Virus record (IMG/VR): IMGVR_UViG_3300028832_000018
Span: 1 to 48,818 of that record
Length of the DNA stretch: 48,818 bases
From: a virus
Reading direction: 5' to 3' (one strand)
Numbering within the stretch: the first letter of the stretch is position 1; each line of letters starts with the position of its first letter. This document shows, in pieces, positions 48,272 through 48,390 of this stretch. The translations under genes and the position numbers were made by a program. The notes under the pieces are model-generated. The model searched no databases and was not told where the DNA came from. It saw only the letters and a program-made list of their open reading frames with translations.

Positions 48272-48390
48272 AATGCCCGTACAGCAAAACTTTTAGCATT
48301 AGGGATGTCGAGGTTGTTGGTTCGAATCCAACTTTTACAGTCTTTTTTGTAAAATGGCTCAACTGGATAGAGCGCGTATAAATGGGCATT
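48272..48390 (+). ncRNA. Y-RNA-like unit C with YrlA-type permuted tRNA mimic
   Basis: Closing helix aatgccc/gggcatt. GT-ACAGCAAAA at 48279-48289. T-arm gttgg-ttcgaat-ccaac (48316-32), then the acceptor-like helix ttttaca/tgtaaaa closed by a loop (48333-54), then a D-arm gctc-aactggata-gagc (48357-73). No anticodon arm. Confidence 0.6.

What the first reader, a model, noticed from the sequence alone, without database searches (positions are those of the whole stretch)
48272..48390. Unit C has the circularly permuted tRNA-mimic topology typical of YrlA Y RNAs
Read 5' to 3', the elements come in this order. First a canonical T-arm (gttgg-ttcgaat-ccaac). Then a 7-bp acceptor-like helix (ttttaca/tgtaaaa) capped by an 8-nt loop where a tRNA would have free ends. 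Then TG and a canonical D-arm (gctc-aactggata-gagc). The position where the anticodon stem would sit opens into the aatgccc/gggcatt closing helix, next to the ACAGCAAAA motif. This order (T-arm, closed acceptor, D-arm) is the known architecture of the tRNA-like domain of bacterial YrlA. It preserves the T-loop/D-loop elbow but cannot be aminoacylated or decode.
Basis: partly seen in the sequence, partly recalled or inferred. Interest (0 to 1): 0.85.

Follow-up and report, generated by a model that had tools for sequence, protein, structure and literature searches.

The report
Permuted tRNA mimic beside Ro60-like gene
A roughly 120-base phage RNA element folds like a tRNA whose acceptor end is sealed and whose gene order is rotated, sits in a stem carrying a conserved ACAGCAA tag next to a distant relative of the Ro60 RNA-binding ring, and belongs to a large family of such RNA-protein pairs in phages and prophages for which I found no description.

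Summary
Window 48272-48390(+) contains, in order:
- a 7-bp closing helix and the ACAGCAAA motif;
- a canonical T arm;
- a closed 7-bp acceptor-like hairpin;
- U8/G9 and a canonical D arm.

ARAGORN and Rfam tRNA do not call it in linear order. After it is re-opened in the acceptor loop, ARAGORN calls a tRNA.

Rfam YrlA matches these elements in the same order, but only at 28.3 bits against a threshold of 69. The Ro60-binding motif GNCGAAN0-1G is absent.

The gene 0.7 kb upstream (46196-47557) is a DUF2828/DUF7788 protein. Its predicted fold matches only Ro60 structures over its full length.

About 260 units of the form "AA-helix-N1-3-ACAGCAA ... helix-UUG" flank relatives of this gene, on the gene strand. 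They occur in 90 of 113 loci, and also in Felixounavirus, Listeria phage A511, mycobacteriophage Lumos and Lak phage.

Permuted T-acceptor-D units recur in many of these loci. Every helix shows compensatory changes, and the 15:48 Levitt pair covaries in 14 of 14 units.

Verdict: this is a real Y-RNA-like module that works like YrlA but is not a canonical YrlA. It is a new variant of a known kind. Binding and function are inferred, not shown.

The parts
48272..48278 (+). Closing helix H1, 5' strand (AATGCCC)
   Evidence: Pairs with 48384-48390. The same 'AA + 5-6 variable bp' helix closes about 260 units in related loci.
48281..48288 (+). Conserved ACAGCAAA motif, the proposed protein-binding tag
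   Evidence: There are three exact TACAGCAAA copies within 230 nt (48055, 48160, 48280) and only one elsewhere in the window. In 261 units the A-C-[A/U]-G-C-A-A consensus is 80-100% conserved per position.
48296..48308 (+). Small variable hairpin between the motif and the tRNA-like core
   Evidence: Seen in the MFE fold. In relatives this position often holds a 3-bp hairpin with a 7-nt anticodon-loop-like loop, such as CTGCTAA or CTGGTAA (read from sequences).
48309..48310 (+). 3' strand of a 2-bp stub (CG) that stands for the top of the anticodon stem; it pairs with 48375-48376
   Evidence: Read from the sequences. The stub is 2-5 bp long and covaries across units (CG/CG, ATG/CAT, ACG/CGT, CTA/TAG, TTACT/AGTAA). 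It corresponds to the 4-bp inner stem of the Rfam YrlA consensus.
48311..48315 (+). Variable-region equivalent (AGGTT, tRNA positions 44-48)
   Evidence: N48 = U pairs with N15 = A. The 15:48 pair covaries in 14 of 14 units.
48316..48332 (+). T arm (GTTGG-TTCGAAT-CCAAC)
   Evidence: This helix is 100% paired, with compensatory changes, in 14 and in 29 sequences.
48333..48354 (+). Closed acceptor-like hairpin (TTTTACA / loop GTCTTTTT / TGTAAAA)
   Evidence: All 7 pairs show changes on both sides and 94.6% of cells are paired on a MAFFT alignment.
48355..48356 (+). U8 and G9 equivalents (TG)
   Evidence: The T is invariant in 14 units.
48357..48373 (+). D arm (GCTC-AACTGGATA-GAGC) with A14, A15, G18, G19
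   Evidence: Stem variants elsewhere are ACTC/GAGT, GCC/GGC, GTC/GAC and TCC/GGA.
48375..48376 (+). 5' strand of the 2-bp stub (CG)
   Evidence: See 48309-48310.
48384..48391 (+). Closing helix H1, 3' strand (GGGCATT) plus the conserved 3' G
   Evidence: The 3' end '..UUG(U)' is the family signature. Units that close with TTG number 278 on the gene strand and 20 on the opposite strand.
48047..48132 (+). Unit A: AAAGGTC-AT-ACAGCAAA ... GACCTTT-G, with no tRNA-like arm recognised
   Evidence: Orthologs with the same inner hairpin are present in L236 and L237.
48152..48251 (+). Unit B: AAGACAC-AT-ACAGCAAA, then a tRNA-like domain in normal order (48171-48243, 9-nt 'anticodon' loop), then GTGTCTT-G
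   Evidence: ARAGORN calls 'tRNA-Cys(aca)'. Rfam tRNA gives 41.4 bits over model positions 3-68 only.
46020..46123 (+). Fourth unit, in the leader of the Ro60-like gene (GATACTC-ATA-ACAGCAAA ... GAGTATC)
   Evidence: It is conserved in L001 and L030. A terminator-like hairpin follows at 46137-46164 and a promoter-like site precedes at 45942-45970.
46196..47557 (+). Gene for the 453-aa Ro60-like protein (Pfam DUF2828 + DUF7788, PHROG 850)
   Evidence: A family profile against PDB sequences finds Ro60 best, at E 1e-5. The top 13 Foldseek hits of the AF2 model are all Ro60, over the full length.
48007..48035 (+). Promoter-like site (TTGCAA-17-TATAAT with TG) just upstream of unit A
   Evidence: This is a consensus match only.
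48398..48726 (+). Four tRNA genes directly downstream, probably on the same transcript

Best explanation
Unit C is one module of a phage-encoded array of Y-RNA-like non-coding RNAs. These are probably the cognate ligands of the adjacent divergent Ro60 homolog.

Proposed mechanism:
1. Units A, B and C and the four tRNAs are transcribed together from the promoter-like site at 48007-48035, and tRNA-processing enzymes cut them apart (inferred).
2. Each unit is closed by a 7-8 bp helix with conserved outer A-U pairs and a 3' G, followed on the 5' strand by single-stranded ACAGCAA. This invariant part plays the role of the Ro60-binding stem and motif of Y RNAs and docks the RNA on the DUF2828 ring (inferred from conservation and gene linkage).
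3. The interior of each unit is an exchangeable head. In unit C the head is a tRNA mimic with a T arm, a sealed acceptor stem and a D arm. It keeps the tRNA elbow and core tertiary pairs but has no free CCA end and no anticodon (shown at the level of sequence and covariation).
4. The head would present a tRNA-shaped surface to a tRNA-binding partner, either a host or phage RNA-processing or repair enzyme or a tRNA-targeting defence nuclease. This would tether the partner to the ring or divert it from real tRNAs (speculative).
For: Anatomy.

Comparison with YrlA: the Rfam YrlA model aligns T arm, closed acceptor and D arm in the same order (E 4.5e-4 in 501 nt).

Protein:
- It carries DUF2828 + DUF7788 and a weak vWA_Ro60 match.
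- A family profile finds Ro60 as the best PDB sequence, E 1e-5.
- Foldseek hits 1-13 are all Ro60, including phage phiLo Ro60 (9KOP, E 1e-8), aligned over 431-532 columns.

Linkage:
- 261 unique units carry the signature.
- 230 of them lie within 1.5 kb of the gene.
- 90 of 113 loci have at least one.
- 278 occurrences lie on the gene strand and 20 on the opposite strand.
- The association holds down to 24-29% protein identity and in cultured phages: UAB_Phi87, Lumos, A511, Lak-A1.

Structure of the permuted core:
- On a MAFFT alignment, 91% of cells pair against 64% in shuffles, 13 of 16 pairs change on both sides, and covariation is 0.69 against 0.19 in shuffles and at most 0.18 in slid controls.
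- On 29 model-aligned sequences, 95.8% of cells pair and 14 of 16 pairs are compensatory.
- The Levitt pair covaries in 14 of 14 units.
- The tRNA core nucleotides are invariant.
- The positional ortholog in L237 keeps T-acceptor-D although all helices have a different sequence.

Precedent:
- Ro60 genes and Y RNAs are linked on the same strand within 4 kb (PMC4201824).
- Phage phiLo Ro60 binds two adjacent Y-like RNAs (PMC12135203).
- Bas63 gp130, a Ro60-like protein upstream of tRNAs, counters the ppl defence (preprint 10.1101/2024.10.10.617714).
Against: - There are no expression, end-mapping or binding data.
- ACAGCAA is not the CGAA-type motif known from Ro60 ligands. None of 261 units has GNCGAAN0-1G near the 5' end.
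- The Rfam YrlA score is far below threshold, here and in Lumos (28.3 and 39.3 against 69).
- The AF2 model is only moderate (pLDDT 69, TM 0.3-0.5).
- No member of the family hits Pfam TROVE.
- The counterpart in the closest relative, L236, lacks the D arm, so the full mimic is not strictly required.
- 23 of 113 loci show no strict unit.
- In the window, a 152-aa ORF separates the gene from the units.
Confidence: 0.72

Rival explanations
1. Unit C is a bona fide member of the YrlA family (Rfam RF02553). On this reading it is simply an AT-rich, divergent ortholog bound by an ordinary Ro60 ortholog.
For: The element order is the same and the RF02553 match is significant at the local level. The neighbouring protein has a Ro60 fold. 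YrlAs are known in phages.
Against: - The score is 28.3 bits against the gathering score of 69. No relative reaches threshold in 35 loci scanned at gathering threshold, and mycobacteriophage Lumos reaches only 39.3 bits.
- The defining motif GNCGAAN0-1G is absent from unit C and from the 5' part of all 261 units.
- The basal and middle stems of the model do not align.
- The protein belongs to DUF2828/DUF7788, and no member hits TROVE.
Confidence: 0.1
2. Unit C is a precursor that is cut in the acceptor loop by RNase P and a 3' processing enzyme and then receives CCA. The result would be a nicked or two-piece tRNA-like molecule that acts in translation or as a chargeable tRNA mimic, independently of the Ro60-like protein.
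For: - The acceptor helix has 7 bp followed by a G at the discriminator position.
- M. smegmatis YrlA, the only YrlA with a 7-bp acceptor stem, is cut by RNase P and gains CCA (PMC4201824).
- The re-opened sequence is called a tRNA by ARAGORN.
- Real tRNA genes lie immediately downstream.
Against: - Unit C has no anticodon arm. ARAGORN's 'anticodon stem' has two mismatches and the 'intron' is the conserved closing helix plus motif.
- Acceptor stems in sister units range from 5 to 8 bp.
- The conserved parts are the closing helix and ACAGCAA, which a translation role would not explain.
Confidence: 0.1
3. The tRNA-shaped head is a free-standing decoy or sponge for host tRNA-targeting defence nucleases or tRNA-modifying enzymes. 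The neighbouring protein would only stabilise or process it, or be unrelated.
For: - The units lie in or beside phage tRNA arrays.
- The Ro60-like gp130 of Bas63 counters a defence system.
- The heads are diverse in different units: normal-order, acceptor-less and permuted tRNA-like.
Against: - More than half of the units have no recognisable tRNA arm, yet they keep the stem and motif (the classifier is crude).
- The strict co-orientation with the gene across very distant lineages argues for a direct partnership.
Confidence: 0.06
4. Unit C is a functionless remnant: two decayed tandem tRNA genes, or an att-site tRNA fragment, that happen to lie between inverted repeats.
For: Tandem tRNAs with the same acceptor stem do produce T-acceptor-D look-alikes (L209 4580; junction matches at no more than 35 bits in tRNA arrays). 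This is a plausible evolutionary origin.
Against: - All three helices show compensatory changes across 14-29 units.
- The Levitt pair covaries.
- The positional ortholog in L237 is retained although its helices are rewritten.
- Every true instance is embedded in the stem plus ACAGCAA frame.
- There are no matches at 40 bits or more in unrelated viral DNA.
Confidence: 0.02

Closest known systems
YrlA (Y RNA-like A; Rfam RF02553; Chen et al. 2014 PMC4201824; structure in Wang et al. 2018, bioRxiv 10.1101/312249)
   Same: - A terminal stem is formed by the 5' and 3' ends.
- The tRNA-like domain runs (variable hairpin) - T arm - closed acceptor stem - D arm.
- tRNA tertiary nucleotides are present and the 15:48 pair covaries.
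- It is encoded on the same strand within about 1 kb of a Ro60-fold gene.
- Several Y-like RNAs occur per locus.
   Different: - It scores 28 bits against a threshold of 69.
- The 5'-strand motif is ACAGCAA, not GNCGAAN0-1G.
- There is one short closing helix plus a 2-bp stub instead of three stacked stems.
- The partner is DUF2828/DUF7788 rather than Pfam TROVE.
- Sister units swap the head for normal-order or acceptor-less tRNA-like domains, or for heads with no tRNA arm.
Thermus phage phiLo Ro60 with Yrl1 and Yrl2 (PMC12135203; PDB 9KOP, 9L5Y)
   Same: It is a phage-encoded Ro60-fold ring with two or more adjacent Y-like RNAs. 9KOP is the best structural match of the window protein.
   Different: The phiLo RNAs were recognised by a CGAA motif in a bulge and are not described as tRNA-like. 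The phiLo protein is a recognised Ro60 homolog.
Bas63 gp130 (Felixounavirus; PhageMaP preprint 10.1101/2024.10.10.617714)
   Same: It is a Ro60-like phage protein directly upstream of a tRNA array. The authors speculate that some 'tRNAs' there are Y RNAs. The related phage UAB_Phi87 has a homolog of the window protein and four [A/G/U]CAGCAA units among its tRNAs.
   Different: No RNA partner was identified in the preprint. I infer, and did not test, that gp130 is the ortholog of the UAB_Phi87 protein.
Metazoan and Deinococcus Y RNAs (Rfam RF00019 Y_RNA; Yrn1)
   Same: They are modular: a conserved terminal stem binds the ring and a variable interior binds an effector such as PNPase.
   Different: Their binding helix has a different sequence (bulged helix with CGAA). 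Metazoan Y RNAs have no tRNA-like domain. The T and D arms of Yrn1 are oriented differently.
Circularly permuted tRNA genes (Cyanidioschyzon merolae) and two-piece, permuted tmRNA (from my own knowledge)
   Same: The 3' half (T arm and 3' acceptor strand) is encoded upstream of the 5' half (5' acceptor strand and D arm).
   Different: Those genes mature into functional tRNA or tmRNA with free acceptor ends. Unit C has no anticodon arm and sits in a conserved protein-linked stem.

Membership tests
YrlA (Rfam RF02553 / Chen et al. 2014) | tRNA-like domain in the order T arm, closed acceptor-like stem-loop, D arm | tested here: met
   Sequence and fold; element-by-element alignment to the RF02553 consensus; covariation of all three helices.
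YrlA (Rfam RF02553 / Chen et al. 2014) | tRNA tertiary-interaction nucleotides, with a covarying Levitt pair 15:48 | tested here: met
   U8, A14, a D-loop G (G18 or G19), G53, U54, U55, C56, A58 and C61 are invariant in 14 units. The 15:48 pair is G:C in 7 units and A:U in 7.
YrlA (Rfam RF02553 / Chen et al. 2014) | Stem formed by the 5' and 3' ends | tested here: met
   7-bp helix 48272-48278 with 48384-48390. The helix sequence differs between units while pairing is kept.
YrlA (Rfam RF02553 / Chen et al. 2014) | GNCGAAN0-1G motif on the 5' strand of the stem (Ro60-binding module) | tested here: not met
   There is no match in unit C; the only CGAA is in the T loop. None of 261 units has the motif in the first 35 nt. 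ACAGCAA occupies that place.
YrlA (Rfam RF02553 / Chen et al. 2014) | Score at or above the Rfam gathering threshold (69 bits) | tested here: not met
   28.3 bits. No YrlA match at threshold in 35 related loci. Lumos unit 39.3 bits.
YrlA (Rfam RF02553 / Chen et al. 2014) | Encoded within 4 kb of, and on the same strand as, a TROVE-domain Ro60 ortholog | tested here: inconclusive
   The unit lies 0.7 kb downstream on the same strand as a protein with a Ro60 fold. That protein and 17 relatives match DUF2828/DUF7788 and never Pfam TROVE.
YrlA / Y RNA in general | Physical association with the Ro60-family protein | not testable with these tools
   This needs RIP, CLIP or EMSA. Only genomic linkage is shown.
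tRNA (Rfam RF00005) | Linear cloverleaf with free acceptor ends and an anticodon arm | tested here: not met
   ARAGORN finds none. Rfam tRNA gives only 14.7 bits, over model positions 43-63. The linear unit gives 0 genes.
Permuted tRNA gene that matures to a decoding tRNA | After re-circularisation, a complete tRNA with a 5-bp anticodon stem and a 7-nt loop | tested here: not met
   ARAGORN calls the re-opened sequence only in intron mode. The anticodon stem then has two non-pairs, and a 30-nt 'intron' corresponds to the closing helix plus motif.
Ro60 / TROVE protein family (for the neighbouring gene) | HEAT-repeat ring plus C-terminal vWA/MIDAS domain | tested here: met
   DxSxS is present: D277 nearly invariant, S279 and S281 invariant. 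vWA_Ro60 scores 24.8 bits against a cut-off of 27.7, and 9 of 18 relatives match it. The family profile finds Ro60 at E 1e-5. Foldseek hits 1-13 are all Ro60, aligned over the full length. The model confidence is moderate.
Ro60 / TROVE protein family (for the neighbouring gene) | Match to Pfam TROVE (PF05731) | tested here: not met
   No TROVE hit at E <= 1 for any of the 18 family members.

The most novel reading that the evidence does not exclude
DUF2828/DUF7788 proteins may be a second large branch of the Ro60 family with their own RNA code, which I did not find described.

- Each RNA is a short closing helix plus single-stranded ACAGCAA that frames an interchangeable head.
- Known heads are a normal-order tRNA, an acceptor-less tRNA, a permuted sealed tRNA (unit C), a T arm only, and heads with no tRNA arm.
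- The RNAs occur in arrays of 1-6 next to the gene.
- The protein family is present in 701 cultured-phage records. Units were confirmed in the four phages examined: Felix O1-like UAB_Phi87, A511, cluster L Lumos and Lak-A1.
- It is also present in prophages of gut and rumen Bacillota.

The arrays would equip one ring with several tRNA-shaped adaptors or decoys. This could explain why the Ro60-like protein of a Felixounavirus counters an anti-phage system.
Probability: 0.45. Interest if true: 0.85.

Novelty: new variant of a known kind. Interest (0 to 1): 0.68.

Why it matters
- Y RNAs and Ro60 are a long-studied RNP whose bacterial and phage functions remain poorly understood. The partner of the tRNA-like domain of YrlA is still unknown.
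- This locus suggests that the Ro60 world is much larger than TROVE-annotated genes indicate. They appear to carry cognate RNAs recognisable by a simple signature.
- That signature makes the RNAs easy to annotate. In the UAB_Phi87 record two of the four units are overlapped by annotated antisense hypothetical CDS; in the other cultured phages examined they lie in unannotated stretches.
- The system becomes testable in tractable model phages: Felix O1 or Bas63, A511, and LeBron or Lumos.
- It offers natural variants for asking what the tRNA-shaped head recruits, since the heads come in normal, acceptor-less and permuted forms.
- It gives a concrete hypothesis for the reported anti-defence phenotype of a Ro60-like phage protein.

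Tried and rejected
- DNA similarity of the window end to cultured phages found only tRNA genes.
- A single-sequence phmmer search of the protein against PDB gave only antibody noise. A family profile was needed.
Only 5 of 119 loci had the closing helix, and 3 of those 5 had the gene. It is therefore weak support. Two loci I had counted as background (L095, L064) later proved to hold real units.
- MAFFT on whole units (A1) misaligned the closing helix and the D arm because of the 1-3 nt spacer and D-loop length differences. I used a core-only alignment and a covariance model instead.
- My regex classifier for D arms was too strict, so its class counts are unreliable except for 'T arm present'.
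- I did not run a covariation test of the closing helix. The units were selected by pairing, so it would be circular. I used strand asymmetry and position instead. A random 7-bp closure near a motif is not rare: my estimate is about 0.2 per motif.
- The supplementary tables of Chen et al. 2014 (list of 22 phages) are not held. I could not check whether any DUF2828 phage was already in that set.
- I looked for RNA-repair genes (RtcB, PNPase, CCA-adding enzyme) among the larger ORFs of the window and found none.
- The att-site remnant and tandem-tRNA remnant readings were rejected on covariation and on the conserved frame.
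Full report
**1. What the window is**

The 48.8-kb window looks like a complete temperate siphovirus-type genome.
- It encodes a terminase, portal, major head protein, tape measure, endolysin, replisome organiser, RecT and integrase.
- Its right end carries a 453-aa gene (46196-47557), a 152-aa ORF, a 370-nt non-coding stretch, and then four tRNA genes.
- The finding lies in the non-coding stretch.

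**2. Checking the observation**

Reading 48272-48391 gives these elements, in order:
- AATGCCC (48272-48278), then GT;
- ACAGCAAA (48281-48288);
- a 27-nt spacer;
- the T arm GTTGG-TTCGAAT-CCAAC (48316-48332);
- immediately after it, TTTTACA - GTCTTTTT - TGTAAAA (48333-48354);
- TG (48355-48356);
- the D arm GCTC-AACTGGATA-GAGC (48357-48373);
- G, then CGTATAAAT;
- GGGCATT (48384-48390), then G.

The tests agree with this reading.
- The minimum-free-energy fold forms the closing helix, T arm, acceptor-like hairpin and D arm (-32.9 kcal/mol, z = -2.4).
- ARAGORN and Rfam tRNA do not call the element.
The linear unit gives no tRNA. The sequence re-opened in the acceptor loop is called a tRNA in intron mode, with the closing helix plus ACAGCAA as a 30-nt 'intron' at the anticodon position. 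Grafting a real anticodon arm in its place gives a default-mode call.
- The Rfam YrlA model aligns to T arm, closed acceptor and D arm in that order, at 28.3 bits (E 4.5e-4 for a 501-nt search). The family threshold is 69 bits, and the outer stems do not align.

**3. The neighbouring protein**

- The 453-aa product matches Pfam DUF7788 and DUF2828. It matches vWA_Ro60 just below cut-off, and PHROG 850 'RNA-binding protein'.
- None of 18 diverse family members matches Pfam TROVE.
- A profile of the family finds human and Xenopus Ro60 as the best PDB sequences (E 1e-5, vWA domain).
- An AlphaFold2 model is of moderate quality (pLDDT 69).
- The top 13 Foldseek matches in PDB are all Ro60 structures: Thermus phage phiLo, human, Xenopus and Deinococcus Rsr. 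They align over 431-532 columns, with E from 1e-8 to 5e-5.
- I conclude that this protein is a divergent, full-length Ro60 homolog.

**4. The repeated frame**

Unit C is one of four units in the window with the same frame.
- The frame is a helix whose 5' strand starts with AA, then 1-3 nt, then ACAGCAA(A), then a variable interior, then the complementary strand ending in UU, then G.
- The units are: unit A (48047-48132), unit B (48152-48251, which encloses a normal-order tRNA-like domain with a 9-nt 'anticodon' loop), unit C, and a fourth unit in the leader of the gene at 46020-46123.

The frame recurs widely next to relatives of the protein.
- The same frame recurs directly downstream or upstream of the gene.
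- There are 261 unique units, and 230 lie within 1.5 kb of the gene.
- 90 of 113 loci have at least one unit.
- 278 occurrences are on the gene strand and 20 on the opposite strand.
- The helix sequence changes from unit to unit while pairing is kept.
- The motif A-C-[A/U]-G-C-A-A and the flanking AA...UUG are 80-100% conserved.

The pairing extends to cultured phages.
- The protein family is present in 701 cultured phage records.
- I found units in all four that I examined:
  - Felixounavirus UAB_Phi87: four units among the tRNA genes, two of them overlapped by annotated antisense 'hypothetical' CDS.
  - Mycobacteriophage Lumos: three units.
  - Listeria phage A511: three units, with RtcB nearby.
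  - Prevotella phage Lak-A1.
- No Rfam family other than tRNA covers these units.

**5. The permuted head is conserved and structured**

- Seventeen unique units from the viral loci have a T arm that abuts a 5-8 bp hairpin followed by U[A/G]. Fourteen of them then have a D arm.
- On a structure-blind MAFFT alignment of those 14:
  - 91.3% of cells pair, against 63.7% in shuffles;
  - 13 of 16 pairs change on both sides;
  - all 7 acceptor pairs are compensatory;
  - the covariation score is 0.69, against 0.19 for shuffles and at most 0.18 for slid controls.
- A covariance model built from 8 of them finds further instances that were not used to build it:
  - L007, L019 and L002 (61-64 bits);
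  - L161, L163, L159, L171, L228 and L203 in bacterial genomes (50-68 bits);
  - Lumos (61 bits).
- Junctions between tandem tRNA genes score 35 bits or less in the arrays next to relatives of the gene and up to about 42 bits in genome tRNA arrays.
- About 0.8 Mb of unrelated viral DNA gives nothing at 40 bits or more, apart from one match that lies beside an ACAGCAA motif.
- On the 29-sequence model alignment, 95.8% of cells pair and 14 of 16 pairs are compensatory. That alignment leans toward the model. It also contains about five tandem-tRNA false positives, which lower the acceptor figures rather than raise them.
- The tRNA core nucleotides are invariant.
- The Levitt pair covaries perfectly: G15:C48 in 7 units and A15:U48 in 7, with unit C being A:U. 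Chen et al. used the same argument for YrlA.
- A 2-5 bp stub joins the nucleotides after the D arm with those before the variable region, and it also covaries (read).
- In L237 (protein 78% identical) the positional ortholog of unit C keeps T-acceptor-D although every helix is rewritten.
- In L236 (84% identical) the counterpart has lost the D arm. The head therefore evolves quickly, and the D arm is not indispensable.

**6. Interpretation**

- Shown: the anatomy, the conservation and covariation of the fold, the Ro60 fold of the neighbour, and a very broad, strand-specific gene-RNA linkage.
- Inferred:
  - The closing helix plus ACAGCAA is the docking site for the DUF2828 ring. This rests on analogy with the conserved stem and motif of Y RNAs and on the rule that Y RNA genes sit within 4 kb of Ro60 on the same strand.
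  - The units are cut from a common transcript with the tRNAs. A promoter-like site lies at 48007-48035.
  - The tRNA-shaped head recruits or diverts a tRNA-binding factor.
- The only functional hint comes from a preprint. The Ro60-like gp130 of Felixounavirus Bas63 counters the ppl defence system, and its authors guessed that Y RNAs hide among the adjacent tRNAs.

**7. Comparison with what is known**

- Unit C works like YrlA. It has the same topology, the same tertiary signature and the same kind of neighbour.
- It fails two tested membership criteria, the Rfam threshold and the GNCGAAN0-1G motif. A third criterion, a TROVE ortholog nearby, is inconclusive.
- It is therefore best filed as a new variant: Y-like RNAs of the DUF2828 branch of Ro60.
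- I found no paper that links DUF2828 or 'Ro-like' phage proteins to these RNAs.
- The search covers only open-access text, and the phage list of Chen et al. 2014 was not available.

**8. Verdict**

- The topological interpretation is supported.
- The element is real and under selection.
- Its protein partner and function remain inferred.

Noticed in passing
window 46020-46164: A fourth ACAGCAA unit (GATACTC...GAGTATC, with 3' flank CG rather than UUG) lies in the leader of the Ro60-like gene. A promoter-like site precedes it (45942-45970) and a terminator-like hairpin with a T run follows it (46137-46164). The same arrangement occurs in L001 and L030. It might be an autoregulatory leader.
   Followed up: partly
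window 48152-48251 (unit B): The 'tRNA-Cys(ACA)' called by ARAGORN is enclosed in a closing helix plus ACAGCAA frame. It has a 9-nt anticodon loop and a short acceptor stem. It is probably a Y-like module, not a decoding tRNA.
   Followed up: partly
window 48189-48389 (- strand): A 66-aa antisense ORF spans units B and C and is almost certainly spurious. In Felixounavirus UAB_Phi87, annotated antisense hypothetical CDS (Phi87_08 and Phi87_09) likewise overlap ACAGCAA-type units (L232 4883-4936 and 5298-5513).
   Followed up: partly
L235 1039-1590 (Listeria phage A511): A ROOL RNA (RF03087) match at 87.5 bits (threshold 99.1, E 1.5e-16) lies about 1 kb upstream of the phage's DUF2828 gene and its three units. 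An RtcB-type 'tRNA splicing ligase' lies 1.3 kb downstream.
   Followed up: no
window 11888-11956: An isolated tRNA-like sequence (Rfam tRNA 47.1 bits, loop CUCAUAA) lies just after the portal gene. ARAGORN does not call it.
   Followed up: no
window 48476-48565: A class II tRNA has the unusual anticodon ACU (Ser, according to ARAGORN). The same anticodon loop is seen in the relatives L236 and L237.
   Followed up: no
L013 6168-6283, L003 5736-5856, L005 3845-3962, L236 ~2838-2952: Variants without a D arm replace the D arm by 'UAGCAAA...'. This is a second copy of the AGCAAA core of the motif on the 3' side of the acceptor hairpin, and possibly a second binding site.
   Followed up: no
L005 4133-4250, L023 5419-5550, L005 3983-4111, and others: The hairpin between the motif and the variable region often has a 7-nt loop of anticodon-loop form (CUGCUAA, CUGGUAA, CUGAAAA). 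In those units the permutation break point therefore looks like tRNA position 26|27, and an anticodon-like arm is retained.
   Followed up: partly
L209 4580-4648: Two tandem tRNA genes with identical acceptor stems give a T-acceptor-D look-alike (52.8 bits with my model). This suggests how permuted heads could arise by duplication and decay.
   Followed up: partly
window 47559-48017: A 152-aa ORF starts 1 nt after the stop codon of the Ro60-like gene. It has no Pfam or PHROG match. Homologs sit beside the Ro60-like gene in L010-L013 but elsewhere, or not at all, in other relatives.
   Followed up: partly
L208, L224, L168, L203, L204/L229: Homologs with upstream ACAGCAA units also occur in MAG contigs labelled Promethearchaeota, Chloroflexi, Treponema, Succinivibrionaceae and Gastranaerophilales. 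The spread is therefore wider than Bacillota, or these are binned phage contigs.
   Followed up: no
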